Source: an uncultured virus (IMG/VR IMGVR_UViG_3300025789_000022)
Taxonomy: Duplodnaviria > Heunggongvirae > Uroviricota > Caudoviricetes
Length of the DNA: 64,000 bases
IMG/VR virus record: IMGVR_UViG_3300025789_000022
Strand: one strand, 5' to 3'
The notes under the pieces are model-generated. The model ran no database searches. It had not been told where the DNA came from and was given only the letters and a program-made list of their open reading frames with translations. The translations under genes were made by a program, and so were the position numbers. Positions 12,001 through 52,663 of the stretch are shown here, piece after piece (within the stretch, counting starts at the first letter, position 1; every line of letters begins with the position of its first letter).

Positions 12001-13265
12001 ATATCATTAACATTAAGAACGCTTTTTGGGTCTGGATCAATAAGTCTGATTTGACCATAAATGTTTGGGTTATTTTGATCTACATAATAAAGTGTGTCAA
12101 GTAACGCACTGATAGTAGGAAACTGTTGAAAGTAACCACTACTATTTTTATAACAGAATGTATGACCATACTGTTGACCTTGGGTAACAAAAGTTTTGTA
12201 ATTGTTTGGCCAAGTGGTAATAAAAGTTAACTTCATAGTACGGTCTGGCTGAACATTAACTTGCCAGATACCGCTACGTTGTGCAAGTGCTACGCCATCC
12301 CATGTGTCATCAAATGGAACATTGATATAGATATACTTGCCGTCAAATGCACGAACACCATCAAACCCATTGGTTTGAATAAATGTATCATAGTTTACGC
12401 CTTGTATTTGATTATAAGGCACATCTACAATCATGTCAATGTTTTGTATGGCAGGCAGATTAATTAACTGATCCTGCGCAGTTTTTTGTGGCACGTTAAA
12501 CGTAACTGTACCGAAATCGTTGCCATTATTAACAACACCTAGCACATCACGAGTTGAAATATTGTTTTGAATGCTACTTGTACCACTTGTTCCAATTTCT
12601 GTTTGAATCCAGAATGGAAATCCAAGTTGACCAAGATGAAAGTTATAATGACCACCACGAACAAGCGTAAGTGTTGGGTTAACCGCATTTGAATAACCTT
12701 CAATGGTATAACCACTTCGACCGATAGCAGCACTTTGTTGCTCAGTTTGATTATTTGCGGTATAACTTACACGAGTAACATAATAATCATTTTGAATGGC
12801 GGTGCCGCCTGCAGTGACATCTACACTTAGTGGACCATTTGGAACCCAGTAGTATTGACGATAGTTTGTAAGTTTATCTAAGTCAACAAAGCCATTATAG
12901 TTATAATAACGATTTGTAAACATGCGTTGATGATTATTATTAATACCACCATCACTTACTACTTGGTTAAGCAAATCAGGATAGTTATAAACATTGTCAA
13001 TCTTATAGGTATTACTATTAACCGCACGTTTCTTAATAACAACGCCAGGTTCTAACTGATAAAACTGTGCATAAGGATCATTTTCAGTGATATAATAATC
13101 TTTGCTATTAAACACACTGCTTTGATCTTGTTGACCAATATAACCATATACTTTTTTAAGTGCTGGTTCTTGAATCAATTGGTCTAGTGTGGCATTTAAA
13201 AAACGATTATTACTACTTGTTTGAAAAACCTGTGGTAAAAACTTACTACTCTTACGCTTTGCCAT
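1..13265 (-). CDS. Giant virion structural protein, probably baseplate wedge/fibre network (>4,400 aa, truncated at window edge)
   Basis: ATG at 13265 (MAKRKSSKFLPQVFQTSSNNRFLNATLDQLIQEP...) lies 4 nt after the gp6-like stop. The same frame reads sensibly wherever sampled down to position 3. Its absence from the ORF track fits having no in-window stop. It contains FG-GAP-like blades and CBM5/12-like motifs. Confidence 0.85.
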   Translation of the reverse strand, partial: MAKRKSSKFLPQVFQTSSNNRFLNATLDQLIQEPALKKVYGYIGQQDQSSVFNSKDYYITENDPYAQFYQLEPGVVIKKRAVNSNTYKIDNVYNYPDLLNQVVSDGGINNNHQRMFTNRYYNYNGFVDLDKLTNYRQYYWVPNGPLSVDVTAGGTAIQNDYYVTRVSYTANNQTEQQSAAIGRSGYTIEGYSNAVNPTLTLVRGGHYNFHLGQLGFPFWIQTEIGTSGTSSIQNNISTRDVLGVVNNGNDFGTVTFNVPQKTAQDQLINLPAIQNIDMIVDVPYNQIQGVNYDTFIQTNGFDGVRAFDGKYIYINVPFDDTWDGVALAQRSGIWQVNVQPDRTMKLTFITTWPNNYKTFVTQGQQYGHTFCYKNSSGYFQQFPTISALLDTLYYVDQNNPNIYGQIRLIDPDPKSVLNVNDIIGRDHYTSPNGVQFTSGLKVKFIGLVTPGGYYGNEYIVEGVGNAIRLVKFADLVTPETINAASGGFFGNGEGYDAGGYDGNTNNPTQKDYITINRSSIDGNSWSRNNRWFHRDVLQYAANVTNQTFEFDANYQAKRPIVEFLPDFKLYSHGTSYAGPVTVVDSTITNAFAQVEGFNNYALQNNGVFITDGIQLQNGFTVLFKNDANPTVRNTIYQVQTVKTRATAVYNVITYAYSSDGTSQLYINDTTNLRIGQAVAGIVLNNSYIYGSNPYNNSTVYNTGDYVTFKNNTYRATAIQGSIATTATFTASSNNITVASATGITIGQPINVLDTYVPFGTVVTNVSGTTVTLSNNASSSGSAVNVAFTIVDTSVVPTTATLTNNSNTITVASTFGIVTGQAVFETNIPTGNSSRIPVGTIVKNINTDTNTITLSNAVTGDGTGVTVSFNTFGISPPNNTRWSLISDSNPFYPNTTITKIDSSNNIVYISSKLKNVIPSGTYIQFNNTADQINLIPYKTVQNGEAIVALDGINNQGNMFYYVDGVWNTAQIRNSRPQFPLFDIVDSNGFLLGDTASYPSSNFKGSQLFGYTIGNGARDSELGFSLKYQSIGNLGDIVFSNYYVSDTFNYNLNQIDTVVNINSGYAPFIVGWNNYTFANGWTEVSDKSKQHITKTFTATAVSFNNFDLNVVYNNSYYERNLFVSINGVLQSSGTYNITTNATTTILNLSNNLNEGDRLFVKINGISSVYKQLYTMPRNLTNNSENTEFATITLGQVRNHLIEIGNNSLDLIGPPAGSNNFRDIKYNNVGGKLLQHSASMRPAALLFSNPDVDPVRAINFASQSYQNFKNQLLDAINTKQFGNTGDYRACLDTILADFNLTANSANNFYYSDMIAGGNNYVKNTYTIQDTTYRNFNLTTNFSTKPTSYIAALVYLNGVLLVNGFDYTITNFTVSLSSSLTIARLDTLDVYEYSSTLGCNVPPTPSKLGLYPKFKPQITVDNTYASGPQTVVVGHDGSYNVAYGDYRDNILLEYEKRVYNNIAVEYQNNSDYDLISVQPGAFRKTDYSFAEWTQLLSSSFLTWSTQNNVDIFTNSTTSNNLFSFNYSSGTDKIFGDTVPGYWRGIYNYFYDTDRPHTAPWEMIGFTSEPVWWQNKYGPGPYSNQNTTMWSDLELGLVYNGAPNKSYINYRYSRPGLSRIIPTDEHGNLLPPNLTVLRSFDANAAAGAWRVGDQSPAETTWRRSSAYPFATQVAWCLARPAEYCALKYNTHDVVYNSNLNQIINTVSNNRVFNYAVTGADQYIPGLNVFIRELLISNNLDTQRNWIDVANNSTFNLVYKLSGYTDKSYITVVADQVSPQSTNTSVLIPQENYQIKVTKSAPVARAVYSAVVVQKTNTGYQVSGFDKERPYFLAIPSVINSNNYGISAGNSTAIVYRDAQNSIISFAYGTIFATEQQVVDFLISYGRYLTNSGFVFDTTLADNATISDWSLAAKEFLFWNQQQWGDNTVISLTPAGTNITFSSPYGIVDTISNDHNLTKIINSDGAVLTGRDYRVYRSDNTFTVELKDTQKGIHLIDLIVVQYEHSIVFDNSTVFNDILYDEQVGSRQYRLRLDGTKTQGWNGSFYAPGFLINYSDIDIWYSYTDYYTGDIVLFKNKYYAAQNFIPGKPKFVATDWYEINGNLLSKQLIPNMASGAAQFTNFYNPDEADLNTSADIQSKHATGFQDRQYLTDLGLDRTTQYKFYLGMIAQKGTQAVVNAFLRNKQSRIDSDITLVEQWALKLGNYGGTSNVDKLEFNIGNSTAINNQYLFEFISKNDARNTTYNSVKPQDLLLAPNTYRTDLFAKTENINTLIPYAGPVSTNDVALTTYDISKIYNISNLNGVLGESSKIWIAADSSNQWGVYRLTQTSTAYVTNVNQTSPTELTFTTNVAHGFAVLDYVMLKGARLSNVGGSNISDLSGFYRVSRVGGNVFSVKVTNNTSVSSGVLKAQVFKLVNVRYSTVRDFGAYTPARGWSNGEIIYIDNGPSGYQVLQNTPNYPLYETKSPVFTTNTDNFGTSIKINKNQNVAIVGASSKNTTGEVFVYGKNQQNVWQEVASLSPDSRIRSFGSSVDINNNNIAAIAATGGNYGSIYIATANSQSIAVTQIIHYDNAVVQSAGFTQSNAYVLVPNATSLSNFAAGMGIGGGGIPSGTKIANIGTGPQFNYFGLTTNLAVASVTLAANSSIAIYSNLTPGSKFATSMSMSTDGNWLYVGEPVNNQVFVYQYANVAASSTTRVGDGSSKTFTYPATALGQGLRSQDIKVYVNGVIQVPELDYYRDPGNDNVAFYTAPASGAAINLVYEPYFRQVNRIITTDTQASGFGFSVNTNSDGRIVAIGAPNSTITNSNVTNSGLTYIYERTIENLVASGTVNNFQLSNAFANSAALTTPYLTAFPIASVDGIIDTAASFNYATNQVTLSSYPQIDTTVSVQTNQFALIANLKTDTVKVDSNYGETVRISANNSEVYVGAPGWNSGSRGNGSVWKHVNVAKKYGSVTGTVANFIVAANSSIRINDYLVTFGQTFRPPYDPIYFDSNVYQVASTINAAAIPGITAVSNNDGTITINSDAQVAHSNLHLRDEYGSVLETMGIAQWQLAQTIYAPLAQDTLRFGERLSLNPDSTSLVIGSTLSNNKITTTFDAALTRFDGRGVRFIDTIYRSGAAHLYEYVPSATESVNDSGTFVYGTILTHNTASSLERFASGVDISSNFIMVGAPTANILNNPTGAMYVYYNKNANPIWQTIRSQPQDFDSRLIERAYIYNSTTSKLIADLPIVDLQHGYLPNSSETYLDYIINYDPAVYSNVPSTVSFSYDRKNNWGSEHVGKLWWDTNSIKYYDNTQGSTLDRFNFWGLAFPASSVVVYEWVESDVVPKDYATTHPLTPPLYTVNDVYSTRVIVDPSTGYAVTKYYFWVRNSTNNNNNRPSALEIQNTIAFPRNSAAPFVAVMSTGAFALYNAQSLIANDTNIVIEYKNTIKPQLIHSEWTLFDDGTDLGIAVEFLNKLNDSLRGQDSTGRQVPDVKLPIAQRYGTAIRPRQSVFSDATTAKKLFIEQVNNFCTINPIKLVRKQTIEALNIAEAEPLSDSYVTRVQNTTELGYLDTNVYSIGDSVLVAQGISTLGGWGLYRLVNSTTNVRSWQVYRVQTYDVNAYWSYGDWYSSKFNANILPKYTLTSESDITKLSLLVGDIIYIINSTDGGWKWVLVNANGLELLAQQNATIQFSAKLYDINSSGFGWQTSSFENVAYAADSAIEFGYIFDIIKDKLMVSEYRSDYKTLVKLMIDTISTQHLQTDWLMKTSFVDIYHRVRGLDPLPVYLPQPETIVTSFFSEVKPFHTKLKQYVAKYDNSNAIEIAHTNTTDFDLQPYYSTTSGKYRSPQLNNVLDTTALTTQAVYQPWVANHLYGVERVDIVNGGAGYGGTTTVEILGDGNGATATPIIISGMISSVVVTNSGKNYTNASAVVHGLGTGAIIIPIIGNGLPRTFDTHIKFDRYTYSNSIADWAANTHYAVNTVVVYNHEPYKTVTDHTSGSTFDFTKFILLVVKVWYPQTQYALNDIVIYNKVSYIATVDFTSGAIFDSNNLASYSGAWLDNAADRVWAYYSPKSGMAGRDLAQVMLGMEYGGVGVKGPDFNQTPGYDVLNYDKIAYDLSTSDTANVIDVYGPQTEDTYIRSDFLDSGLGLRPQDINVDGGQFVDVYSSHAPEELIPGRIFDTLDIRVKTLPLGSNSMDIKVFTAPSNSGNFIDYAVATTGVSFPIGGIEKFVVLDKVKGPLAEGVDYSVDWLQENINLNYTVSPNTFFYVIMFGSNGINPITDTSFFADGVRTDFELDDNVLTDVQQAYVKVNGFAVSNWTLVNKLENGRNVLAVRFDTAPNNLDYIQIHLYALALGHRAYQELYEQTFFTSSSTVYPADYTFTLSNPEIYAEPISAYSIVKLNGNGLIPPQQTYFVGDGITTVYSMTNSYVKPISAITNGEITVI

Positions 13266-29667: not shown

Positions 29668-30050
29668 TTGTATCACTATCTCACCGAGAATTACAAAATT
29701 ATAAAATAGTTGTTGGTGATAAAGAATTTACAAATCAATCAGCAGATATATTACTGATTGATTCTATTATGACAAGGATATACTTTGAACCATATAAAAT
29801 AAAACCACTATTAAGAATAGATAATATGCTTGTAAATTATTGGTTAGCAGATGTTACGCAATATGACCACATGTTAGAGTTTACTATTTCAAATGATTTT
29901 TGGATTAAATATTATAATAAAGAAACACAAAATCAAATAAATTTTGCCAATACCAATTATAAAAATGACCCCATGGCAATTGACAAATATGTTGGTATTT
30001 TTGATTCAAGTAACCTAATAAAAATTATAAGAGATAACTTAATTGGATAA
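29664..30050 (+). CDS. Hypothetical protein (low-GC island)
   Basis: 128-aa ORF coupled to gp46 by an ATGA overlap and overlapping the radical SAM gene. Confidence 0.65.
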   Translation: MIVSLSHRELQNYKIVVGDKEFTNQSADILLIDSIMTRIYFEPYKIKPLLRIDNMLVNYWLADVTQYDHMLEFTISNDFWIKYYNKETQNQINFANTNYKNDPMAIDKYVGIFDSSNLIKIIRDNLIG

Positions 30051-31476
30051 TATTTTACTAGTAACAGTACCAAAGCAAGATTTAAATAACCCACCTGCGG
30101 CACTGGGAATATTAAGTGCAATTTGTATACAAAACAGTATTGAACCACGTATACTAGATTTAAATCAAATTTTATCTAAAGAACTAACTGCTGACGAATG
30201 GCAAGATTTAGATGTTAAAAGTGCTCTTGGTAATAACATCCCACAGTTAAATTTACTGTTAAAACAAAAAATAAACGATATTTTTACCAAAGAATTAAAA
30301 AAACATATCAATAAACATACACAATTTATTGCAATAAGTGTTTTTACTTTTGAAAGTATCGTATCTACAGATATCTTATTAGAATGTTTAAGTGATATAA
30401 ATGTAGAAGTTATTGTTGGTGGCACAGGATTAGAATCTGTTTTTAACAATAAACCTTATTACGAAACAATTGCTGATGCGGTAGATTATATTGTGCTTGG
30501 TGATGGTGAAATAAGTTTTGATATGATATTAAAAAGACAATGCGACAAAAAAATAGTAAAATACAGCAATGATCGTGATTTAAATAATTATCCGTTACCA
30601 GATTATACCAAGTTTCCTAAACAAGATTATAGTTGGAATAAGGTTTATATAACTGGAAGTCGTGGATGTGTACGTAGTTGTACATTTTGTGATGTTGCAA
30701 ATTATTGGCCACAGTTCAGATATCGTGATGCAGACCTGTTAATTGAAGAAATTCGTAAACATGTCGGTGAGACTGGTGTGACACACTTTGAATTTACAGA
30801 TAGCTTAATAAACGGTAATATTTCAAATTTCTATAAATTTAATCAAAAATTAGCAGAACTTAAGATTAAAGATAGCAATCTTAAAGATGTTACCTATAGT
30901 GGACAATTTATTTGTCGTCCAGAAAAACAGATGCCAACACAGCATTATGAGGCAATGCATTATGCTGGTTGTAATCAAATAAGCATTGGTATTGAAAGTT
31001 TTAGCGAATCTGTGCGTAATCACATGAAAAAGAAATTTTCCAATGCTGATATTGATTATCACCTAGAGCAAAGTGCATATTGGGGTATACCAAATATTTT
31101 TTTAATGATTAGTGGTTACCCTACAGAAACACAAGCTGATCATGCAGAAAATATAAAATACTTGCACAAATATCAAAAATATGTTTACAGCAATACTATT
31201 TTTATGATAAGTTTTGGGTTTACAATGCACCTATTACACAATACGCCAATTATGAATATGATTGAAAACCTTGATATTAAAATACCAGATAATTCCATGA
31301 GTAATATATTTGATTGGGAAGTAGGCAATAATAATTTAAAGAATAGAATATTGAATAGACTTGAATTGCATGAAGTTGCATATAAACTTGGCTATAAAAT
31401 GCCAAGAAGCTACTCATATCTTAAATTTATAGAAGAACTTGCACAAAAAATAAGTAATGATAAAGAGGTTATATAA
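30043..31476 (+). CDS. B12-binding-domain radical SAM protein
   Basis: 'GSRGCVRSCTFC' (CxxxCxxC), N-terminal 'PPAALGILSA...IVGG...GDGE' domain, 'IGIESFS', 'GYPTET'. Confidence 0.88.
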   Translation: MDNILLVTVPKQDLNNPPAALGILSAICIQNSIEPRILDLNQILSKELTADEWQDLDVKSALGNNIPQLNLLLKQKINDIFTKELKKHINKHTQFIAISVFTFESIVSTDILLECLSDINVEVIVGGTGLESVFNNKPYYETIADAVDYIVLGDGEISFDMILKRQCDKKIVKYSNDRDLNNYPLPDYTKFPKQDYSWNKVYITGSRGCVRSCTFCDVANYWPQFRYRDADLLIEEIRKHVGETGVTHFEFTDSLINGNISNFYKFNQKLAELKIKDSNLKDVTYSGQFICRPEKQMPTQHYEAMHYAGCNQISIGIESFSESVRNHMKKKFSNADIDYHLEQSAYWGIPNIFLMISGYPTETQADHAENIKYLHKYQKYVYSNTIFMISFGFTMHLLHNTPIMNMIENLDIKIPDNSMSNIFDWEVGNNNLKNRILNRLELHEVAYKLGYKMPRSYSYLKFIEELAQKISNDKEVI

Positions 31477-32837: not shown

Positions 32838-33950
32838 ATGTTAGACCCAACAACACTGCCACCACAAGTTCATAATTTTGGATTTTGGCTTGTAGACAAT
32901 GACATTGTTTTTAGTAAAGTAAAAAGTGTTTTAGCTGCCCAGCAGAAAAATACCAACAATATTCGTTTTTATTATCATGACCATACTTTCAACCGCATTG
33001 ACTGGACAATTGAACCTGCACAAACATTGACAGAGTTATATAAAGAAAGAGCATTGCAGCTAAGAGAAAATTATGATCATGTTGTATTACTATATAGTGG
33101 CGGCAGTGATAGCAGTAATGCCCTAAAAACTTTTATAAACAATGATATTAAGTTAGATGAGGTTTTTTGTTGGTATACTAGTCACAATGAACACAAAAAT
33201 CTTACTAATCTTGAAATTATACACTCTGCCAGTGGCATGTTAGAAAAAGTTCAAGGGTTAGGCATAACAGTAACTAAAATTGATGAAAATCCATACTTTG
33301 ATAAAACTGATTTAAAAAATCCAGAATGGACTCTATCTGCCGAACCTAATCTAGTTTCTGCTCAAATTAACAAATTAAAGATTTTCCAAGAGAATAAATC
33401 ATGGCGAACACTTGCAGATAGTGGTAAGAAGATAGCAATTATACTTGGACTAGAAAAACCAAGAATTTTTTACGATAGCGGTAAATGGGTATCTGCATTC
33501 TTAGATGTATCAAATGCATGGAATTGGGAAGAATTACATACTCTTCCTCAACCATTTACACTAGAACCATTCTATATTAGCCCACATTCTCCACTTATAA
33601 CCATTAAACAATCTCACATAGTTAAAAATTATATCAATAAAACATATAGTGTTGACTTTATAAATGATAATTTCAGCAAGCATAGGTTTAATCAAGAACT
33701 ATATTATATAATAGTTAGAAACACATGCTATCCATATTGGGATGATAATACGTTTAGTATTGGAAAAGACGTGCCTGTGTTAAAAGAAAAGTATCGTTGG
33801 GTATGGGATAGTAATACACAGTTATCACAGGATTATTTTTCTGGATTGCATTGGGTTGAAAAAAATATAGATTCGCAGTTTTTCAATGGTGGAAAAATAT
33901 ACAATGGATTAGTAGGTTCTTGGTCACGATGGTATAATTTAGATGCTTAA
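32838..33950 (+). CDS. PP-loop (adenine nucleotide alpha-hydrolase-like) protein
   Basis: 'VVLLYSGGSDS' PP-loop; substrate unknown. Confidence 0.7.
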   Translation: MLDPTTLPPQVHNFGFWLVDNDIVFSKVKSVLAAQQKNTNNIRFYYHDHTFNRIDWTIEPAQTLTELYKERALQLRENYDHVVLLYSGGSDSSNALKTFINNDIKLDEVFCWYTSHNEHKNLTNLEIIHSASGMLEKVQGLGITVTKIDENPYFDKTDLKNPEWTLSAEPNLVSAQINKLKIFQENKSWRTLADSGKKIAIILGLEKPRIFYDSGKWVSAFLDVSNAWNWEELHTLPQPFTLEPFYISPHSPLITIKQSHIVKNYINKTYSVDFINDNFSKHRFNQELYYIIVRNTCYPYWDDNTFSIGKDVPVLKEKYRWVWDSNTQLSQDYFSGLHWVEKNIDSQFFNGGKIYNGLVGSWSRWYNLDA

Positions 33951-35253
33951 TCTATTATTATTTTCAATATTGGGGTGTATTGCCGGAACTGTCACTGGTG
34001 CAGTACCTGGTTTATCTAACAGTGTTTCATTAATAATACTTTATCCATTACTATCTTTATTACAAGCTAACGAAATTGTTGCTTTTTATATCTGCATGGT
34101 CACCACTACACAGTATTTTGGTAATGCTGCTGCAACTTTATTAGGAATACCAACAGAACCTACTTGCTTACCAAGTGCCAAAGAAGGTTATAGTTTAACA
34201 CGTCGTGGTAACGCAAGCGAAGCATTAAGCAGTGGTGCTATTGCAAGTTTCTGTGGCAGTTTAATTGCAGTGTCTTTTAGTTTAATAATATTTTTTATAG
34301 GAAATAACTATTCATTATTATATAATTTCAAATTACAATTTTTTATTATAATCTTTACATGCTTAATTACGGTGTTTTCAAGTTCAAATAAACATGTCAT
34401 TAGTTTTTTATTATTAATATGTGGTTATGTTTTAGGAATGATTGGTGTAAATTCAATTACACGAGAATCATTTTTAACATTTAATAATTCTTATTTGGTC
34501 AGTGGCATACCACCAATTATATTTTTAGTATTTTTATATAGTTTACCATCATTAATTGCGTTTGAACGTAAAAATATTAAAAATAATATATTTGAATCAA
34601 TCACGTATAAGTTTGTATTGCCAGTAACAACTGTTATTCGTAGTTCAATTATTGGATTTATCTGTGGATTTATTCCTATGCTAGGTATTGTTATAAGCAG
34701 TAACTTATCTTACAGTATTGAACGGTTTGTCAATCACAAGACCTATAATAATAACGGCGATATTCGTGGACTAGCAAGCAGCGATGCGGGACATAATAGT
34801 GGGTTAGTTGCAAGTTTAATACCATTGTTTTGCTTGGCAATACCTATTACAGCAAGTGAGTATATACTATATGATCTTACAACATATCGTGGTTTAATCT
34901 ATAATTATACATGGTTAACTGCAAACTATGTATGGATTTTTAGTATTTTTATACTAGCAAATTGCGTTGGTGTGGCAATAAGTTGGCCATTGTCTATTAC
35001 ATTAATGCGAATTATTGTACGATATATGGAACATTTTAAATACTTTGGTATTGCTTTATTAATTATTGCAGTATTATATGTTGGAATTATCACCAATCAA
35101 TTACAATTTTTTATTATATTAAGCGCAGTTTTTTTACCATTGGGGTTATTACTGCGTAAATTTGATTTACTGCCATTACTGTTAGGATTTATGTTATCCC
35201 AACAATTTGACAGTATAACAAGAATAGTTTATAGTTTATACATAAAAGGATAA
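33943..35253 (+). CDS. TctA-like tripartite tricarboxylate transporter permease
   Basis: Highly hydrophobic; 'GTVTGAVPGL', 'YFGNAAATLLGIPTEP', 'EGYSL', 'ASSDAGHNS', 'LAIPITASE' and 'PLLLGFML' follow TctA motifs. Confidence 0.75.
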   Translation: MLNLLLFSILGCIAGTVTGAVPGLSNSVSLIILYPLLSLLQANEIVAFYICMVTTTQYFGNAAATLLGIPTEPTCLPSAKEGYSLTRRGNASEALSSGAIASFCGSLIAVSFSLIIFFIGNNYSLLYNFKLQFFIIIFTCLITVFSSSNKHVISFLLLICGYVLGMIGVNSITRESFLTFNNSYLVSGIPPIIFLVFLYSLPSLIAFERKNIKNNIFESITYKFVLPVTTVIRSSIIGFICGFIPMLGIVISSNLSYSIERFVNHKTYNNNGDIRGLASSDAGHNSGLVASLIPLFCLAIPITASEYILYDLTTYRGLIYNYTWLTANYVWIFSIFILANCVGVAISWPLSITLMRIIVRYMEHFKYFGIALLIIAVLYVGIITNQLQFFIILSAVFLPLGLLLRKFDLLPLLLGFMLSQQFDSITRIVYSLYIKG

Positions 35254-36120: not shown

Positions 36121-36653
36121 TGCACTATCAACTATTGCCTAATTTACCAATGGTACCACAAGAACTAATAGATGCAACATTAAATTTAATCGATAAGCAA
36201 GATTTATTGTATTATCTTAACTCGGTGTCACGTCCTATAAGCAGTTTAAATAAAAAATTTCCACGAACTATGTTGCATCCTGATTTAGAAACATGGTTGC
36301 GTAATAATATTATTGATGGTGCAAACAAGTATGAATTAGCCATTACACTTGATGATAATGATGCTCATTCAATATTACCACACACAGACCGTGCCAGAGA
36401 ATACACAATAATATATTTGTTGCAAAGTGGCGGCGAGGATCATAAAACTGTTTTTTATGAAAGCAAAACAATAAAAAATATAGACAAGATGATGACTTTC
36501 GATTATAGTGATCTTATAGAAGTAGATAGTATTGTTGTTCCAATTGAAAAATGGACTATTCTCAACGCACAAGAAATTCACAGCGTTGAAAACATTCCAC
36601 ATACCAGAATTGCAATACAGATAAGCATGGATCACAATCCTTGGGCGTCATAA
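36120..36653 (+). CDS. 2OG-Fe(II) oxygenase-like protein
   Basis: 'LPHTD', 'EIHSVEN' and 'RIAIQI' give the HxD...H...R pattern. Confidence 0.6.
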   Translation: MHYQLLPNLPMVPQELIDATLNLIDKQDLLYYLNSVSRPISSLNKKFPRTMLHPDLETWLRNNIIDGANKYELAITLDDNDAHSILPHTDRAREYTIIYLLQSGGEDHKTVFYESKTIKNIDKMMTFDYSDLIEVDSIVVPIEKWTILNAQEIHSVENIPHTRIAIQISMDHNPWAS

Positions 36654-36689
36654 AAATTTTATAATTCAATACAAAATGCATAACTACTA

Positions 36690-36950
36690 TTAGGCAATTC
36701 AGGCACATTAGGCAACCAGTCCCCCCATACGAGATACTCTAGAAGGTTGGCAGCACTCCGATAATTGCGGCAACAGGGACAAGGCACAAAAAACGACGTG
36801 GCTCTGAGAAAAAGCAACCACAGCAGTATTATGTTCGCTAACAAGGGCATAAATCACTGATCCGCTGGAATAATCTACTAGACTAAGGGAGTACAGGCTA
36901 GCCGCTCCGCTCAATAACATGAGTTCTTTTTGTTAGTATCGTCCTGAAAA
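36690..36950 (+). ncRNA. Candidate large structured non-coding RNA
   Basis: GC-enriched region without a credible CDS; multiple stems and a loop-to-distal pseudoknot; preceded by CATAACTA. Confidence 0.55.
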
Positions 36951-37057
36951 ACTCATATGAAGCATTTCTGGTGATATAGGTTCCAGAAATGGAATCTATA
37001 TACAAACCCTCAAATCTATATGAAACATTAAAGATTAATTATAAAGAAGAATTAAAA

Positions 37058-37114
37058 GAGCGAAGCGAAAGGTGAACGAGCGATAGCGAGTGAACTGATA
37101 GGCGAAGCCTATCA
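37058..37114. other. GCGAAGC mini-hairpin cluster / primosome-assembly-site-like element
   Basis: GAGCGAAGCGAAAGGTGAAC and GAGCGATAGCGAGTGAAC repeats, then the perfect hairpin TGATAGGC-GAA-GCCTATCA. Confidence 0.45.
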
Positions 37115-37120
37115 TAATAG

Positions 37121-37160
37121 ATTAGAAGTAATTAGAAGTAATTAGAAGTAATTAGAAGTA
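37121..37160. repeat. Perfect tandem repeat (ATTAGAAGTA)x4
   Basis: Directly visible; the last copy contains the stop codon of the 37152-37346 ORF. Confidence 0.98.
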
Positions 37161-37346
37161 TGGCAATCCGCTCTTCTTTGTAGTTTCCATGTGTTCCTCA
37201 ACAATTTTAGCAATAAGATTTCGTTCAGTGACACTCATATTCATAGCTTCTGTATATGTAACACCACCACGCATATGCCAACACATTTGAAGGATGTTAG
37301 ATTTTATTTTTTTAATATCACTTTCATACTGATCCACTAGCGACAT
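37152..37346 (-). CDS. Small baseplate/tail assembly protein, probably the -1 frameshift extension of the upstream gene
   Basis: 'CWHMRGGVTYTEAMNMSVTER' resembles the short gp51/GT-type chaperone segment; no clear SD; the frame is open back to the slippery site. Confidence 0.7.
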   Translation of the reverse strand: MSLVDQYESDIKKIKSNILQMCWHMRGGVTYTEAMNMSVTERNLIAKIVEEHMETTKKSGLPYF

Positions 37347-37366
37347 GATTTCATCATGAGAAAGGT

Positions 37367-38209
37367 TTACGATAGCGGCTCGAAAAAATTTCCATAATCA
37401 AATTCAATTTTTACATCATATTCTTTTTCACAAGCCTCACAAAAAACATGTGCTGGTTGAATAGACATAACACTATTAATTTCAGCAATTTTATTTTGCA
37501 CAAGTTTAATAATCTTATTTGTTGTATTCTTATAAAATTCTCTTATGTGATTTGAATCAGTTACTACTATCCCTTCTTCAGTAGTAATACTTTCGGTTTG
37601 ATTTGAAATAAGTGTATTTCCAATATCAACTACATTTTGTAAGTGTAAATCAAATTGTGCCTTGCGAGTCTCATCGTCAATTGTTTCGTCGCCTACTAAT
37701 TGCATTATTTTTTGTTCTTCAAAGTCAATTAAGTTAGATTTATTGCTCTGTAAGTAATTTTGTGGTTTAAATTTAAAAATTAATCCTTCAATCTCAATAG
37801 AAGTTGAATAATCTGGACTTTTTACTTTCATTAATAATGGACCTAGACTCATTTGATGTCTATTTTCGTTATCACAATTAGGGCATTTACTGTCTATATC
37901 CATATCATCGCCGTATGTGGCAATTCTAATGGCTATCAATATAGCATCAATATCAATAGTTGGGCAACCCCAAGCATTAGTTATTGCTGGCACACAACTT
38001 TCAACTACACTTACAACACCCTGTCCATTCATAAGTGCATCTGGTGTTCGTAGCATTACTTCATCTTTTGCTGTCATAGGCATTACTCCTACTTCACCTG
38101 ATGCAGGCAAAGATAAACTATTAGGAGTCCAGTATTTTCCTCCACTAGGCAGTTTCAAGAAGATTGCAGGTTGACGAAAGTGTTTGAAAAGTGGATTAGA
38201 ATTTTGCAT
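37367..38209 (-). CDS. gp26: Baseplate hub assembly chaperone, T4 gp26-like
   Basis: 'LKLPSGG...VMPMTAKDE...DIDAILIAIRIATYG' with two CxxC pairs (CPNC, CEAC). Confidence 0.75.
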   Translation of the reverse strand: MQNSNPLFKHFRQPAIFLKLPSGGKYWTPNSLSLPASGEVGVMPMTAKDEVMLRTPDALMNGQGVVSVVESCVPAITNAWGCPTIDIDAILIAIRIATYGDDMDIDSKCPNCDNENRHQMSLGPLLMKVKSPDYSTSIEIEGLIFKFKPQNYLQSNKSNLIDFEEQKIMQLVGDETIDDETRKAQFDLHLQNVVDIGNTLISNQTESITTEEGIVVTDSNHIREFYKNTTNKIIKLVQNKIAEINSVMSIQPAHVFCEACEKEYDVKIEFDYGNFFEPLS

Positions 38210-46978: not shown

Positions 46979-49900
46979 ATGGCACTGCGTCGTTATTTTG
47001 GTAAAATAAGCCCACTTCAAATTGGTAATCTTGTTGGACACAATGGTGAATTGGTCATTGATGAAACAACAGATTACGTATACATCATGGATGGTGTAAC
47101 GCCTGGTGGTCAACAAATACTTTATACTAATGTTAATGCTGCAGTTTCAAATATCTATGCTAATGTTAATCCGAGTGTCAATAATTATTTTACTTTAGGT
47201 AATGTATCTAATGTTTGGGCTAATGCGTTTATTGGAAATGCTTTAGTATCAACCATAGGTATCGGTAATACTACTATTCATTGGTCTAACGTTACTAATA
47301 GATTAGTAATAGATAGTGATCTTAAAGTAAACGGTAATATAAATTTAACTGGTAGTGAAATTGTAGCAAGTTCGGCACAGTCTACTAATTTTATTAATAC
47401 TGCTGCTCCTGGTTATAATAATGGATTTTCATTTAGTAATGGAACAACAGGTGATAGTGGTGTATTTCATACTCTTGATAATGCCAACGTAATTCAAGTT
47501 TATTTGTCTGCAAATGGAAACCCATTTATATCAGCAGGTGGTGATGGAAATGGAGCAATTGGTTTTAATAATACTATTGTAAATGGTAATCTGACTATTT
47601 CTGGATTTTCTCCATACACAACTCAAATCGGTTTTGCCCCATCATTTAAACCTTCAAATGCAAAGTTAACATTTGCTGATCAAGTTAATTCTTTTGTTCA
47701 ATTTTTAATACAGAACAAAAGTAACGGAAATAATGCAAGTACTGATTTTGTAGCAACATCTAACGACGGTTCTGACTCAACTCATTATATTGATATGGGC
47801 ATTAATAGTAGCACATTTAATGGTGGTGGTGGATTAGATGGACCAGATGATGGTTATTTGCTTGTAGAAGGTGGAAAACTTCTTATTGCTACAATTGACC
47901 AACCTAACGATATTGTATTTGCTGTTGGTGGCGATGCCCCAAGCAATGAAATGGGTCGTTTTAAGTATGGTAATGGTTTCTCTGTAAATGGTAACCTAAC
48001 AGTAACTGGTAACTTAAATGTAACTGGTAACATTGTAACTACAAATTATGAAACTGTTTCCAAGACAGAATATGCTAATAGCATTGTTGCGAGTGGCAAT
48101 ATAACTGCCAGTGGAAATCTTACTGCAGCATATTATGTAGGCAATGGTTATTATCTAAGTAGCATTATTTCAAGTTATAGTAATGCAAATGTTGCTGCTT
48201 ATCTACCAACTTATAGCGGTAATTCAAATGCTGCATTCTTTACAGGTAATGGATATTATCTTACAAGTGTGCAAACAAGTTATAGTAATGCAAATGTTGC
48301 TGCTTATCTACCAACTTATAGCGGTAATTCAAATGCTGCATATCATACAGGTAATGGTTATTATCTAAGCGGTATTACTACAAGTTATGGTAATGCAAAT
48401 GTTGCTTCTTATCTACCAACCTATAGCGGTAATTTAAATGCTGCATATCATACAGGTAATGGATACTATCTAACTGGTATTCAAACAAGTTATAATAATA
48501 CAAATGTTGCTGCATACTTGCCAACTTATAGCGGTAATATGAGTGCTTATAAATTTATAAGCACTGCAATTCCTGGTTATAGTAATGGATTTGCATTTAG
48601 CAATGGTGTATTCGGTGATAGCGGTGTATTCCATACTCTTGACAGTTATAATACTATACAAGTTTATTTGTCTGCAAATGGAAAACCATTTATATCAGCA
48701 GGTGGTGATGGAAATGGATCAGTTGGTTTTACCAATACTATTATAAATGGTAATTTAACCATTTCTGGATTCTCTCCATACACAACTCAAATTGGCTTTG
48801 CTCCAACGTTCGTTCCATCAAATGCTAAACTTACATATGCAGACCAACAAAATACATATATTCAATTCTTATTACAGAATAAAAGTAACGGAAATAGTGC
48901 AAGTACTGACGTTGTATTAACATCAAATGATGGAACTGAAACAACTCATTATATTGACCTTGGCATTAATAGCAGTACATTTAATGCTGGTGGTGGACTA
49001 GATGGACCAGATGACGGCTATCTACTTGTAGAAGGTGGAAAACTTCTTATTGCTACTATTGATCAGCCAAATGATATCGTATTTGCTGTTGGTGGAGATG
49101 CTCCAGTAAATGAGATAGGTAGATTTAAGTACGGCAATGGTTTCATTGCTAATGGAAATGTTACTACAAATGGTAATATTATTCCGTTTGGAAATGCTGC
49201 TTATAGTTTGGGAAGTCCTACTAATCAATGGAAGAGTCTATATGTAAGCAATAACACAATTTATATTGCTGGAACTCCAGTTCAGGTTTCAAATGGATCA
49301 TTGTTTGTTAATGGCAATGCAGCCTATAGTAATAGTACAGTTTCTGCTTATCTTCCAACTGATAGTACAATTATCTCTCTTTATAGTAACGCTGCAAGCC
49401 AAGCAAATTTGATAACAACTATCAATGCTAATATAACTGCTGCAAACAGTGCTATCTCAACTGTTAATGCTAATGTGGTGGCTGCAAACAGTGCTATTTC
49501 TACGCTTATTTCAAATGCTGCAAGTCAGGCAAGCGATATCAATACGCTTTATGCAAATGCGGGTTCTCAGGCAAACAGTTTATCTACTCTAAACAGCACG
49601 GTGGTTAATCTTGCAGGTACTGTTGCTACTATCCAAGCAGGCAGTGGATTTGCTACTATACAACAGATTCAAGCAGCAAATAGTTCTATTACAACACTAA
49701 ATGCAAACTTAAATGCGGCTAATCTAAACATTACTAATATTCAAAGTAATATTGCGACTATTGCAAGCAATGTGAATACACTATTCACAAATGTAAGTGG
49801 ACTTGCTACAAGCATCAATACACTATTCACTAATGCTGCGAGTCAGGCAAATGATATCACAGTTCTTTATAGTAATGCTGCAAGTCAGGCAACCACACTG

Positions 49901-52663
49901 AATACACTTATCAGTAATTCTGCTCTACAAGAAAGTGAAATTGCTCTTCTCAATGCCAATGTTGCGGCTGCAAATAGTGCAATTGTTACTGCAAATAGCG
50001 CAGTAACTACATATGCAACTAACTTAAATGCAACAATGACTGCAAACATTGTTTCAACAAATTCACGTGTAACAGTACTAGAAGGAAATGTTGTAAGTAT
50101 TAATAATACACTTGTTGGTGTTATCAATGGCGCATTTAGTTATAGCAATGCAAACGTTGCAACATATCTACCAACTTACAGCGGTGCCTTAACTGCTGGT
50201 AATATCACAGCAAGTGGCAATGTTAGCGCAAACTTCTTTACAGGCAATGGTTATTATCTAACAGGTCTGTCGGCAACATACGGCAACACACAAGTTGCTG
50301 CTTACTTGCCAACTTATAGCGGTAATGTTAAAGCAGGCAATGTTCAGGCGACAACAGCAGTTTATGCTAACGCTTATTATTGGTATAACAATGGTGCGCC
50401 ATTTAGTAGTTCAACTTATAGTAATACAAATGTTGGACAATATCTTCCAACTGCAACTGCCATAACAGCAAATCTTGGTAATGTTATAACGAATAGTGGT
50501 GTATTTTATGCTAACGGTGTAAGCATACTTTTTGGTATTGGCGGAACATATAGTAATAGTAATGTTGTTGCTTACTTACCAACATATAGTGGCAATTCAA
50601 ATGCCTCATTCTTTACGGGTAATGGTTATTATCTAACAGGTATTACGAGTGGTTCAACTTATAGCAATACCAATGTGGCTGCTTATTTGCCAACCTATGC
50701 TGGCAATGTCAACGCTAATTTCTATCTTGGTAATGGCTATTATCTAACAGGTATTACGGGCGGTGGTTCTACATACAGCAACACAAACGTTGCTGCATAT
50801 TTGGTAACTTATAACGGTAACATTTCTGCTGGCAATCTTTCACTAAGCAGTGGTGCAAGTGGCAATATCAGTGGAACTGGTTATGTAACCGCTGGTAATA
50901 TGGTAGCAAATACAAACATGTATGCCAATGGTTTCTATTGGTATAACAATAATGCTACACTAGCATCTACTATTACTGGAACATTTGCTAATGCTAACGT
51001 AGCAGGTTATCTGCCAACTTATACAGGCAACGTTGGTGCTGGTAATATTATTCTTACTAATCTTGGAAATATTATAGCAGCCACTAACTCCAATCTATCA
51101 ATACGCACTTATGGTTTATATAATATTATAACACTTTATGGCATTGGTGGTGGATATAATAGTCCTCCTTATAGTAACCAATCACTTACAGGTGGTAATG
51201 GTAGTGGTATGACCGCATCATATAGTTCTGTTGGTGGTTATGTATCACAGGCTTCACTTGTTGTAACTAATCCTGGCACAGGTTATAAGAATGGTGATAT
51301 TCTTTCACTACCGGGCGGTGGTTCTACTGTAATTTTAAGTAATTATAATCAAAATATTACTACTAGCAAAGCATATAATTGGACATTTAGCACATATGAT
51401 GGCAACATAACTGTTCCTGGTAATATCATTATGCCAAGTAACAGTTATGTGTTAGGCGACTTTACTAACTCTAACGTTGCTTATAGAACATTCTTCCAGA
51501 CTACAACTGCTAATGCTACAACTGGCATCTATGCTGCACCAACTGGAACTGCAACTGGTGCAAGTTGGCAAGCAATAAACACAAATACTACTAATGCCAA
51601 CAATGCAAGTAAGATTCTTATTGCTACCAATGGTAATACTGATGTTCAGTTGATAAGTGGTGTTAATGGCAGCGGAACTTATCTACCGTTGAGTTTCTAT
51701 AACAACGGTGCTGCTCAGATGGTGATTTATCCAAATGGTAGCATCAATACGAGCAACGCTAATCCAATTACCACAACTGGTAACGTAAATGCTGGTTATT
51801 TTGTTGGTAATGGTTCGGCATTAACTGGTATTCAGGCAAACTTACAGGCTAGTAACATTTACGGCACAAGCAGCAACGTAACTATCGTTGCTGGCACATA
51901 CTCAAGTGTGTTTAGTAATGTTGGTATGGTAACAATGCCAAATGTCACTGTAACTGGCAATACAAGTGTTACAGGTAACATTACTGCAGGCAATGTTATT
52001 GCAACTGGAACAAGTGGTATGCAAACACGTTTCTTGTGGGATACTTGGCAAGCAAATACTAACGCATCACTAACATCATTTACTCCAAGTGGTAGTATAA
52101 GTGGCAATGCATCTTGGGATGCGACCCAAGCATATGGATTAAAGTTAACACCAGCAACAAATACCCAAAATGGTAATATCTATTGGAATTCAAGTACAGT
52201 CAACTATAATTATGATATGGTTATTACCGCATCGGTTGGTGCTGGTGGCGGCAATGGCGCAGATGGTCAATATATTTTCTTAGGATGTAGTGCAGTTCCT
52301 ACTTCACAGGCAACCAATGTTGGCGGTATTCACGTTTATAACCATTATTATAGCAACCAATGGGAAATATATGTAGCGGGAACTCAGTATATTATACCAT
52401 TTATTAACGAAGAAGCAAGTAACTATTTGCCAAGTGGAATTAGGGTTTGGAATGCCACTTACGTATGTTTCTACAATATTACTGTAAAAATACGCAAAAT
52501 ACAAAATGGTGCTCGTATGTTAGAAATATACTTGAATGAAGCATACCAAGGGTCTGTAAACATATCAAGTTGGAGTCCAGCAGGTAACTATTTCGGTGTA
52601 ACTGGGATAACGGGCGGCTCTAACTCTCAACACTGGGTTCGTCAATTGAGAATAGATTGGTAA
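46979..52663 (+). CDS. Long tail fibre/adhesin with internal repeats and C-terminal L-type-lectin-like domain (1894 aa)
   Basis: N-terminal 'GELVIDETT...DGVTPGG' (Mtd_N-like), YSNANVAAYLPTY repeats, a coiled-coil stretch, and C-terminal 'GADG...YFGVTGITGG'. Confidence 0.75.
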   Translation: MALRRYFGKISPLQIGNLVGHNGELVIDETTDYVYIMDGVTPGGQQILYTNVNAAVSNIYANVNPSVNNYFTLGNVSNVWANAFIGNALVSTIGIGNTTIHWSNVTNRLVIDSDLKVNGNINLTGSEIVASSAQSTNFINTAAPGYNNGFSFSNGTTGDSGVFHTLDNANVIQVYLSANGNPFISAGGDGNGAIGFNNTIVNGNLTISGFSPYTTQIGFAPSFKPSNAKLTFADQVNSFVQFLIQNKSNGNNASTDFVATSNDGSDSTHYIDMGINSSTFNGGGGLDGPDDGYLLVEGGKLLIATIDQPNDIVFAVGGDAPSNEMGRFKYGNGFSVNGNLTVTGNLNVTGNIVTTNYETVSKTEYANSIVASGNITASGNLTAAYYVGNGYYLSSIISSYSNANVAAYLPTYSGNSNAAFFTGNGYYLTSVQTSYSNANVAAYLPTYSGNSNAAYHTGNGYYLSGITTSYGNANVASYLPTYSGNLNAAYHTGNGYYLTGIQTSYNNTNVAAYLPTYSGNMSAYKFISTAIPGYSNGFAFSNGVFGDSGVFHTLDSYNTIQVYLSANGKPFISAGGDGNGSVGFTNTIINGNLTISGFSPYTTQIGFAPTFVPSNAKLTYADQQNTYIQFLLQNKSNGNSASTDVVLTSNDGTETTHYIDLGINSSTFNAGGGLDGPDDGYLLVEGGKLLIATIDQPNDIVFAVGGDAPVNEIGRFKYGNGFIANGNVTTNGNIIPFGNAAYSLGSPTNQWKSLYVSNNTIYIAGTPVQVSNGSLFVNGNAAYSNSTVSAYLPTDSTIISLYSNAASQANLITTINANITAANSAISTVNANVVAANSAISTLISNAASQASDINTLYANAGSQANSLSTLNSTVVNLAGTVATIQAGSGFATIQQIQAANSSITTLNANLNAANLNITNIQSNIATIASNVNTLFTNVSGLATSINTLFTNAASQANDITVLYSNAASQATTLNTLISNSALQESEIALLNANVAAANSAIVTANSAVTTYATNLNATMTANIVSTNSRVTVLEGNVVSINNTLVGVINGAFSYSNANVATYLPTYSGALTAGNITASGNVSANFFTGNGYYLTGLSATYGNTQVAAYLPTYSGNVKAGNVQATTAVYANAYYWYNNGAPFSSSTYSNTNVGQYLPTATAITANLGNVITNSGVFYANGVSILFGIGGTYSNSNVVAYLPTYSGNSNASFFTGNGYYLTGITSGSTYSNTNVAAYLPTYAGNVNANFYLGNGYYLTGITGGGSTYSNTNVAAYLVTYNGNISAGNLSLSSGASGNISGTGYVTAGNMVANTNMYANGFYWYNNNATLASTITGTFANANVAGYLPTYTGNVGAGNIILTNLGNIIAATNSNLSIRTYGLYNIITLYGIGGGYNSPPYSNQSLTGGNGSGMTASYSSVGGYVSQASLVVTNPGTGYKNGDILSLPGGGSTVILSNYNQNITTSKAYNWTFSTYDGNITVPGNIIMPSNSYVLGDFTNSNVAYRTFFQTTTANATTGIYAAPTGTATGASWQAINTNTTNANNASKILIATNGNTDVQLISGVNGSGTYLPLSFYNNGAAQMVIYPNGSINTSNANPITTTGNVNAGYFVGNGSALTGIQANLQASNIYGTSSNVTIVAGTYSSVFSNVGMVTMPNVTVTGNTSVTGNITAGNVIATGTSGMQTRFLWDTWQANTNASLTSFTPSGSISGNASWDATQAYGLKLTPATNTQNGNIYWNSSTVNYNYDMVITASVGAGGGNGADGQYIFLGCSAVPTSQATNVGGIHVYNHYYSNQWEIYVAGTQYIIPFINEEASNYLPSGIRVWNATYVCFYNITVKIRKIQNGARMLEIYLNEAYQGSVNISSWSPAGNYFGVTGITGGSNSQHWVRQLRIDW
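47390..49144 (+). repeat. Internal ~590-bp duplication (47390-47980 / 48554-49144) flanking ~3.5 tandem 105-bp units (48171-48540)
   Basis: Offset of 1164 bp between the large copies; the 105-bp units start at 48171, 48276, 48381 and 48486. Confidence 0.9.

What the first reader, a model, noticed from the sequence alone, without database searches (positions are those of the whole stretch)
36690..36950. Pseudoknotted structured RNA candidate
Seen pairings: GTCCC(36719-23)/GGGAC(36776-80) and GTGG(36798-801)/CCAC(36818-21). A long stem CAGT..TTATGTTC(36824-36)/GGGCATAA..ACTG(36845-59) has the loop GCTAACAA(36837-44), which is complementary to distal TTGTTAGT(36930-37). Also GGAG(36888-91)/CTCC(36905-08) and CTCA/TGAG(36910-23). 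The several G-U pairs favour RNA on the + strand. AGGCA recurs at 9-nt spacing (36692, 36701, 36710). I cannot assign it to a known RNA family.
Basis: partly seen in the sequence, partly recalled or inferred. Interest (0 to 1): 0.75.

Follow-up and report, generated by a model that had tools for sequence, protein, structure and literature searches.

The report
Large pseudoknotted RNA of jumbo phages
The flagged stretch is the core of a real noncoding RNA gene of about 400 bases with two pseudoknots, conserved in hundreds of giant T4-like phage contigs, absent from the RNA family library in this form, and of unknown job.

Summary
The region lies in a 498-nt gene-free gap (36654-37151) of a T4-like jumbo-phage contig. 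The gap is about 72% identical in relatives whose neighbouring hub protein is only about 65% identical. No frame is open on either strand.

Covariation is strong. On a MAFFT-only alignment of 16 sequences, 92.7% of cells pair, against 35-50% when partners are slid. A covariance model of 36788-36945 matches 98 of 100 sources, always on the window's + strand.

That domain holds two identical 12-nt boxes flanking a hairpin, which stay identical to each other while differing between phages.

Rfam has no hit in the window. In 7 of 20 relatives the 5' neighbour of this core is Rfam RF01718 (Polynucleobacter-1, an orphan motif), so that motif is one interchangeable 5' domain of a much larger RNA.

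Function is unknown. My best guess is a trans-acting scaffold that binds one partner twice. This is a new variant of a known kind. Interest 0.72.

The parts
36690..37120 (+). Whole conserved noncoding RNA gene (about 400-430 nt); the ends are inferred from where conservation starts and stops
   Evidence: nhmmer and blastn conservation of 36692-37131 in relatives; no conserved ORF; consensus fold favours +
36692..36714 (+). Three AGGCA units at 9-nt spacing, just 5' of the first helix; a leader or a protein/promoter site, role unknown
36719..36780 (+). P1: GUCCC 36719-23 with GGGAC 36776-80, enclosing hairpin P2 (36751-55 with 36766-70; A-G mismatch in the window)
   Evidence: Pairing potential kept with changed sequence in relatives, with a register slip; P2 compensatory CAGCA/UGCUG, UAGCA/UGCUA, UCACG/CGUGA
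36797..36822 (+). P3: 36797-801 with 36818-22, closing a 16-nt loop CUCUGAGAAAAAGCAA that is nearly invariant in the closer clades
   Evidence: Helix 1: all 5 pairs change on both sides across 96 sequences, 88.9% paired
36824..36859 (+). P4: long hairpin 36824-36 with 36845-59, 8-nt loop 36837-44
   Evidence: (9 of 13 pairs with change on both sides)
36837..36937 (+). Pseudoknot 1: P4 loop 36837-44 with 36930-37
   Evidence: 96.1% paired, 4 pairs with double change; 6 of 8 pairs with double change; not in the model
36864..36902 (+). Pseudoknot 2 (new): 36864-68 with 36898-902, which lies in the loop of P6
   Evidence: 98.7% paired; 96.5% paired, 4 of 5 pairs with double change; not in the model
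36888..36908 (+). P6: GGAG 36888-91 with CUCC 36905-08; its loop GUACAGGCUAGCCG is the most conserved stretch of the family
   Evidence: 100% paired, 3 of 4 pairs with double change
36910..36923 (+). P7: CUCA 36910-13 with UGAG 36920-23
   Evidence: (3 of 4 pairs with double change)
36952..36963 (+). Box 1 (CUCAUAUGAAGC), single-stranded, 5' of P8
36974..37001 (+). P8: 12-bp hairpin 36974-85 with 36990-37001, GAAA loop
   Evidence: helix 1: 11 of 17 pairs with double change, 80.2% paired
37015..37026 (+). Box 2 (UCUAUAUGAAAC), a direct repeat of box 1, 3' of P8
37072..37095 (+). P9: hairpin with GAUA loop and tandem G-A/A-G pairs (Watson-Crick in several relatives)
   Evidence: helix 2: 5 of 10 pairs with double change
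37096..37114 (+). P10: terminal 8-bp hairpin with GAA loop, abutting the stop of the convergent 64-aa gene; probable 3' end or terminator (inferred)
   Evidence: Top mutual-information pairs; helix 3 (6 of 8 pairs with double change); no U-run, and no terminator found

Best explanation
The region is the pseudoknotted core of a stand-alone noncoding RNA gene of about 400-430 nt (about 36690-37120, + strand) in a T4-like jumbo phage. Shown: it folds into a 5' domain (P1-P2), a core with two H-type pseudoknots (P3-P7, PK1, PK2) and a 3' domain. The 3' domain is box 1, hairpin P8, box 2, an AU-rich linker and two terminal hairpins. Shown: it belongs to a large family of phage RNAs with a common core and interchangeable 5' domains, one of which is the Rfam motif Polynucleobacter-1. 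Inferred: it acts in trans as a rigid scaffold. The scaffold displays two identical single-stranded boxes that bind the same partner twice, either a dimeric protein or two copies of one nucleic acid. The RNA would so assemble or sequester that partner during infection. The last hairpin would end and protect the transcript.
For: Conservation without coding: about 72% nt identity over 36692-37131 in relatives whose hub protein is 63-66% identical; no shared ORF; at least 5 stops of at least 2 kinds in all six frames in the window and 3 relatives. Structure: (paired 92.7%, 83.7% and 76.5% against slid 30-50%); both pseudoknots covary although they were not in the model. Strand. Spread: the profile hits 129 of 162 loci fetched by the hub protein; model R1 matches 98 of 100 sources; a core pattern alone finds at least 120 viral contigs. 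Independence from neighbours: the upstream same-strand gene is a 177-aa ORF here, an unrelated 136-142-aa ORF in 11 loci and a GIY-YIG gene in 139 of 191. Of 80 loci found by the RNA pattern, 23 show neither the hub nor the 64-aa gene, at least 6 of them for lack of downstream sequence. Two-site idea: the 7-mers of box 1 and box 2 are identical in 52 of 53 sequences across 9 variants. A direct repeat of at least 8 of 10 in that geometry occurs in 80 of 97 sequences against 107 of 485 shuffles. No complement of the 7-mer lies in cis.
Against: No transcript data exist. No sigma-70-like promoter lies upstream of 36690 and no intrinsic terminator was found, so the ends and independent transcription are inferred. 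The partner of the two boxes is unidentified. The identity of the boxes could have another cause, such as alternative pairing to a distant site or a DNA-level site. The tight GIY-YIG-to-RNA adjacency in most relatives would also fit co-transcription as a 3' extension of that mRNA. Alignment A4 was fitted to the model, which inflates the nested-helix counts, though not the pseudoknot counts.
Confidence: 0.6

Rival explanations
1. It is a cis-acting 3' extension of the upstream mRNA. It would be co-transcribed with the gene before it and serve as a stabiliser, terminator or regulator of that message, not as a separate RNA gene.
For: The RNA starts within about 40 nt of the stop of the upstream same-strand gene in the window. 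In relatives the GIY-YIG ORF ends 200-310 nt before the core pattern in most of 139 loci, and about 21 nt before the RF01718 domain in L324. No own promoter was found. Weinberg 2010, Table 1, marked Polynucleobacter-1 as probably cis-regulatory (passage seen).
Against: The upstream gene belongs to three unrelated families in different clades while the RNA persists with compensatory changes. Cultured T4-like phages that carry the GIY-YIG gene have no such RNA behind it. Some 400-550 nt with two pseudoknots is far more than a terminator or stabiliser needs.
Confidence: 0.17
2. It is a DNA-level element, such as a replication origin, a packaging site or a protein-binding region. Its repeats (AGGCA x3, the two boxes, the GCGAAGC mini-hairpins, the AT-rich stretch) would be what is selected.
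For: There are short iteron-like repeats at both ends, an AT-rich linker at 37027-37056 and two GCGAAGC units (37060-66 and the apex of P10). From recall, not from any call: such mini-hairpins are known in single-strand DNA origins, and a T4 origin lies near genes 25/26. The identity of the two boxes is what sites for one DNA-binding protein would show.
Against: The covariation tolerates G-U far more than A-C (479 against 159). The consensus energy is strand-asymmetric. Two pseudoknots covary. None of these is expected for duplex DNA sites. The repeats could still be an overlaid signal.
Confidence: 0.06
3. It is a protein-coding gene read by an unusual code or with recoding, or the pairings are chance in spacer DNA.
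For: ORFs of 63 and 70 aa exist on the minus strand.
Against: No ORF is shared among relatives. Every frame has at least 5 stops of at least 2 kinds in the window, L007, L132 and L078. Conservation and compensatory changes exclude chance.
Confidence: 0.01

Closest known systems
Polynucleobacter-1 RNA motif (Rfam RF01718; Weinberg et al. 2010, PMC2864571)
   Same: In 7 of 20 diverse relatives, and in L324, this 141-nt motif lies on the same strand, about 18 nt 5' of the core that the window shares. Both come from freshwater-type metagenomes. It is an orphan motif of unknown function.
   Different: The window has no RF01718 match even at E<=10, and neither do 8 other relatives at E<=0.5. The double-pseudoknot core and the 3' domain are not part of the Rfam model. 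The 2010 table rated the motif as probably cis-regulatory, from 16 representatives. Here it is the 5' end of an RNA of about 550 nt with no gene after it on its strand.
GOLLD, ROOL and OLE ornate large RNAs
   Same: They are large, with many helices and pseudoknots, linked to phages or prophages and to lake metagenomes (GOLLD), and of unknown function. GOLLD likewise has a conserved part and a variable part (recalled; for Kretsch et al. 2025, PMC12286853, only the search listing and abstract were seen).
   Different: No match to their Rfam models at gathering score in the window or in 30 relative or cultured-phage loci. This RNA is shorter, about 400-550 nt. There is no link to tRNA genes: 1 of 30 loci. 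Self-assembly is untested.
HEARO RNA / IscB omega-RNA (endonuclease-associated RNA)
   Same: A large structured RNA sits next to, and on the same strand as, a small endonuclease gene in most family members.
   Different: The nuclease is a GIY-YIG protein, not HNH/RuvC. The RNA follows the ORF. No hypervariable guide segment was identified. The window has the RNA without the nuclease, and cultured phages have the nuclease without the RNA. This is resemblance only.
CsrB/RsmZ-type protein sponges
   Same: They carry repeated single-stranded sites that bind a dimeric protein. The commonest box core, GGAUGA, resembles the CsrA site (recalled consensus).
   Different: Only two sites. Many clades, the window included, lack GGA in the boxes, so CsrA itself cannot be the general partner.

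Membership tests
Rfam RF01718 Polynucleobacter-1 | Match to the covariance model at or above 37 bits | tested here: not met
   No hit in the window at gathering score or at E<=10 over 36400-37400. Met in relatives only (84-117 bits in 7 of 20 loci; 110.5 bits in L324).
Rfam RF01718 Polynucleobacter-1 | Belongs to the same larger RNA as bona fide members (shared core directly 3' of the motif, same strand) | tested here: met
   R1, built from window 36788-36945, matches L078, L060, L125, L129, L103, L021 and L032 directly 3' of their RF01718 hits.
Any Rfam 15 family (including GOLLD, ROOL, tmRNA, RNase P, group I/II introns, riboswitches, ribozymes) | Covariance-model match | tested here: not met
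   0 hits in 64 kb at gathering score. At E<=10 there were only 7 weak eukaryotic snoRNA, miRNA and similar hits, none inside 36700-37130.
tRNA / tmRNA | ARAGORN detection | tested here: not met
   0 genes in the window.
H-type pseudoknotted structured RNA (generic) | Loop-to-distal pairings supported by compensatory change on an alignment not fitted to them | tested here: met
   PK1 and PK2 (MAFFT only; not in the model).
Homo-oligomeric ornate RNA (ROOL/GOLLD-like assembly) | Intermolecular contacts or a defined oligomer | not testable with these tools
   Covariation cannot tell whether PK1 forms within one molecule or between molecules.
Intrinsic terminator at the 3' end | GC-rich hairpin followed by a U-run | tested here: not met
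   0 terminator-like sites in 36400-37500. P10 is followed by UAAUAG here, and by two or three U and then A-rich sequence in the relatives read (for example UUAAA or UUUAAAA).

The most novel reading that the evidence does not exclude
The family is a new class of ornate phage RNA that works as a ribonucleoprotein or as an RNA-only machine. One form of this reading: it partners the SegE-type GIY-YIG nuclease encoded just upstream in most relatives, as a regulator or a targeting subunit, with the two identical boxes as its docking or specificity sites. The other form: it self-assembles through PK1 or the boxes into a multimer, like ROOL and GOLLD. The window's copy would then be a nuclease-free variant of that machine.
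Probability: 0.12. Interest if true: 0.9.

Novelty: new variant of a known kind. Interest (0 to 1): 0.72.

Why it matters
Large structured RNAs with several pseudoknots are rare, and almost every well-understood one does something fundamental. This one is conserved with heavy compensatory change across hundreds of uncultured jumbo-phage contigs. It turns an orphan 141-nt Rfam motif into one optional domain of a 400-550-nt RNA. It also shows an unusual signal: two boxes that co-vary by identity, not by complementarity, which points to a partner bound twice. The work gives a defined alignment, a structure model and coordinates for probing, cryo-EM and partner pull-downs. It is also a worked case in which a shuffle test on one sequence would have wrongly dismissed a real RNA.

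Tried and rejected
DNA search of the gap against cultured phages found no match. The whole genome of the window is not held.

The two first viral loci were 100% identical copies and useless for covariation.

The profile and model R1 found nothing in the cultured relatives Phosso, Atu_ph07 and RaK2. R1 also found nothing behind the GIY-YIG gene of Melnitz, syn9, phiM12, ACP17 and S-SRM01; the best hit was 13.1 bits on the wrong strand.

The genome-contig scan with a 19-nt degenerate core pattern returned 120 stretches. All 80 fetched were chance hits in mostly GC-rich genomes, with R1 at most 15.6 bits and only partial. That scan is spent, and the Polynucleobacter genome copy could not be examined.

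The boxes are not a genome-wide promoter motif. The 12-mer with 2 mismatches gave 65 hits against 62.8 expected, and the 7-mer gave 14 against 20.5. I considered the boxes as mini-ORF starts, CsrA sites, C/D-box or hammerhead cores, and a box1-box2 helix. I dropped each by inspection: the spacing is not a multiple of three, GGA is absent in many clades, and there are no complementary flanks.

There is no link to tRNA genes: 1 of 30 loci.

For the 2023 catalogue of 8,495 viral candidate RNAs of 29-151 nt (PMC10690425) I saw passages only. Its alignment files could not be searched, and the six files that could be searched held no match, so a fragment of this RNA may be listed there unnamed.

Protein family and Atlas look-ups gave nothing for the 64-aa and 177-aa ORFs or for the L007-type 142-aa ORF. 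Earlier findings of this scan showed nothing.

Full report
**Setting.** The window is a low-GC (about 37%) phage contig.
- It encodes a T4-type portal (PF07230, 3.5e-107) and a gp26-type baseplate hub (PF12322).
- The hub protein's best match among cultured phages is 31.8% identity, to the 469-kb Sinorhizobium phage Phosso. The other matches are jumbo phages such as Atu_ph07 and RaK2.
- Relatives lie on viral contigs of up to about 347 kb.
- The finding lies in a 498-nt gap, 36654-37151. A 177-aa ORF on + ends at 36653, and a convergent 64-aa ORF on - ends at 37152.
- The gap holds a GC island of 49-52%, against 25-35% in the flanks.

**The observation.**
- Taken alone they mean little. The 261-nt piece folds no better than dinucleotide shuffles on either strand (z +0.87 and +1.48).
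- The full element 36715-37120 gives z -2.07.
- Rfam finds nothing in the window at gathering score or at E<=10. ARAGORN finds nothing.

**Conservation without coding.**
- I aligned 38 hub homologues and used the alignment to fetch 80 viral and 80 metagenomic loci.
- The gap is about 72% identical at the DNA level in relatives whose hub protein is 63-66% identical.
- A profile of the gap hits 129 of 162 loci, always on the same side of the hub gene and on the same strand.
- No ORF is shared.
- All six frames carry at least 5 stops of at least 2 kinds in the window and in three relatives, so no single stop reassignment opens a frame.

**Structure.**
- On a MAFFT-only alignment of 16 sequences of 36788-36946 (A3), a structure of 42 pairs is 92.7% paired. 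Shuffles give 80.1% (0 of 500 reach the observed value), and slid partners give 35-50%. Of the 42 pairs, 22 change on both sides.
- A covariance model without the pseudoknots (R1) matched 98 of 100 sources, one match each, all on the window's + strand.
- On the resulting 96 distinct sequences the structure is 83.7% paired, against 63.0% in shuffles and 34-45% slid.
It has 6 of 8 pairs changed on both sides.
- A second pseudoknot that I found (36864-68 with 36898-902, in the loop of P6) is 96.5% paired, with 4 of 5 pairs changed on both sides.
- The 3' domain helices P8, P9 and P10 are 76.5% paired against 30-45% slid, with 22 of 35 pairs changed on both sides. This is despite an imperfect MAFFT alignment.
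- P1 keeps its pairing potential, but through a register slip.

**Strand.** Four results favour +.
- The consensus fold is -147.2 kcal/mol on + against -118.2 on -.
- G-U/U-G cells number 479 against 159 A-C/C-A cells. That alignment was model-fitted, which favours G-U somewhat.
- All R1 matches lie on one strand.
- The Rfam matches in relatives lie on that same strand.

**Link to a known motif.**
- A gathering-score Rfam scan of 20 diverse relatives gave RF01718 (Polynucleobacter-1) in 7 of them, at 84-117 bits. Each hit lies about 18 nt 5' of the R1 core on the same strand. L324 shows the same arrangement.
- The window and eight other relatives show no trace of RF01718.
- The family therefore has a common core and 3' domain with interchangeable 5' domains. 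In the window's clade the 5' domain is P1-P2, preceded by the AGGCA repeats.
- The only paper in the searchable library that names the motif is Weinberg et al. 2010.
- Its Table 1 lists the motif as an RNA that is probably cis-regulatory, from Burkholderiales and fresh water or estuary. Its supplement gives 16 representatives (passages seen).

**The two boxes.**
- Mutual information on a sequence-only alignment showed column pairs at a constant +63 offset that co-vary without being complementary.
- These columns are a 12-nt box on each side of hairpin P8: window 36952-63 and 37015-26.
- Across the main clades the 7-nt core of the two boxes is identical in 52 of 53 sequences, although 9 different cores occur.
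- A direct repeat of at least 8 of 10 in this geometry occurs in 80 of 97 sequences, against 107 of 485 shuffles.
- No Watson-Crick complement of the core exists within about 700 nt.
- The window's core is not enriched elsewhere in its 64 kb.
- Covariation by identity is what two sites for one trans partner would give. This is my inference, and the partner is unknown.

**Neighbours.**
- The 64-aa gene follows the hub in 156 of 162 loci.
- Among 80 loci fetched by an RNA pattern alone, 52 have both genes downstream and 23 have neither. At least 6 of those 23 lack downstream sequence.
- A SegE-type GIY-YIG gene (PF19835; full-length phrog_447) lies on the same strand just upstream in 139 of 191 loci with the core pattern.
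- Of 80 loci fetched by that protein, 64 carry the core 160-210 nt after its stop.
- The gene is absent from the window. An unrelated ORF replaces it in 11 sister loci.
- The gene occurs in 460 cultured-phage records. The five I checked have no such RNA behind it.
- I therefore read the adjacency as synteny first and possible partnership second.

**Verdict.**
- The finding is a real, strand-specific RNA gene with two pseudoknots.
- It is a divergent member of a large and largely undescribed family of jumbo-phage RNAs that subsumes an orphan Rfam motif.
- How it works is open. I commit, at modest confidence, to a trans-acting scaffold that binds one partner twice through the two boxes.
- The rivals are a cis-acting 3' extension of the upstream message and an overlaid DNA-level site. 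Coding and chance are excluded.

Noticed in passing
window 37121-37160: A perfect tandem repeat of a 10-nt unit (x4) overlaps the stop and last codons of the 64-aa gene (37152-37346, minus strand). The aligned relatives carry a single copy, so this is a recent local duplication of the gene's 3' end.
   Followed up: partly
relatives, e.g. L324:1837-2262, L357:1888-2313; absent from the window: A conserved gene of about 142 aa with only a SegE-type GIY-YIG domain (PF19835, phrog_447, often annotated 'NAD synthetase' in cultured phages) sits directly upstream of the RNA in most relatives. It is widespread in cyanomyoviruses that lack the RNA.
   Followed up: partly
window 33943-35253 and 30043-31476: A TctA-family tricarboxylate transporter subunit gene (PF01970, 3.7e-55) and a radical SAM gene lie inside the phage contig. 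The transporter is an unusual auxiliary gene for a phage.
   Followed up: no
window 3-13265 (minus strand): A giant ORF of at least 4421 aa runs off the window start. ORFs of 1129, 1239 and 1119 aa follow on the same strand.
   Followed up: no
window 48171-48538: A 105-nt tandem repeat (3.5 copies, 87% matches) lies inside the 1894-aa ORF 46979-52663.
   Followed up: no
L324:2761-3420 and other loci between the RNA and the 64-aa gene: Extra genes, one with a weak NUMOD3 nuclease-associated motif (19.1 bits, just under Pfam's 20.4 cut-off), are inserted between the RNA and the 64-aa gene in many relatives. The median distance is 1056 nt, against about 290 nt in the window. The spot may be an insertion site for homing-endonuclease-type genes.
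   Followed up: partly
window 37060-37066 and 37102-37108: The heptamer GCGAAGC occurs twice, once free and once as the apex of the terminal hairpin P10. Some relatives have GCGAUAGC in the first place.
   Followed up: no
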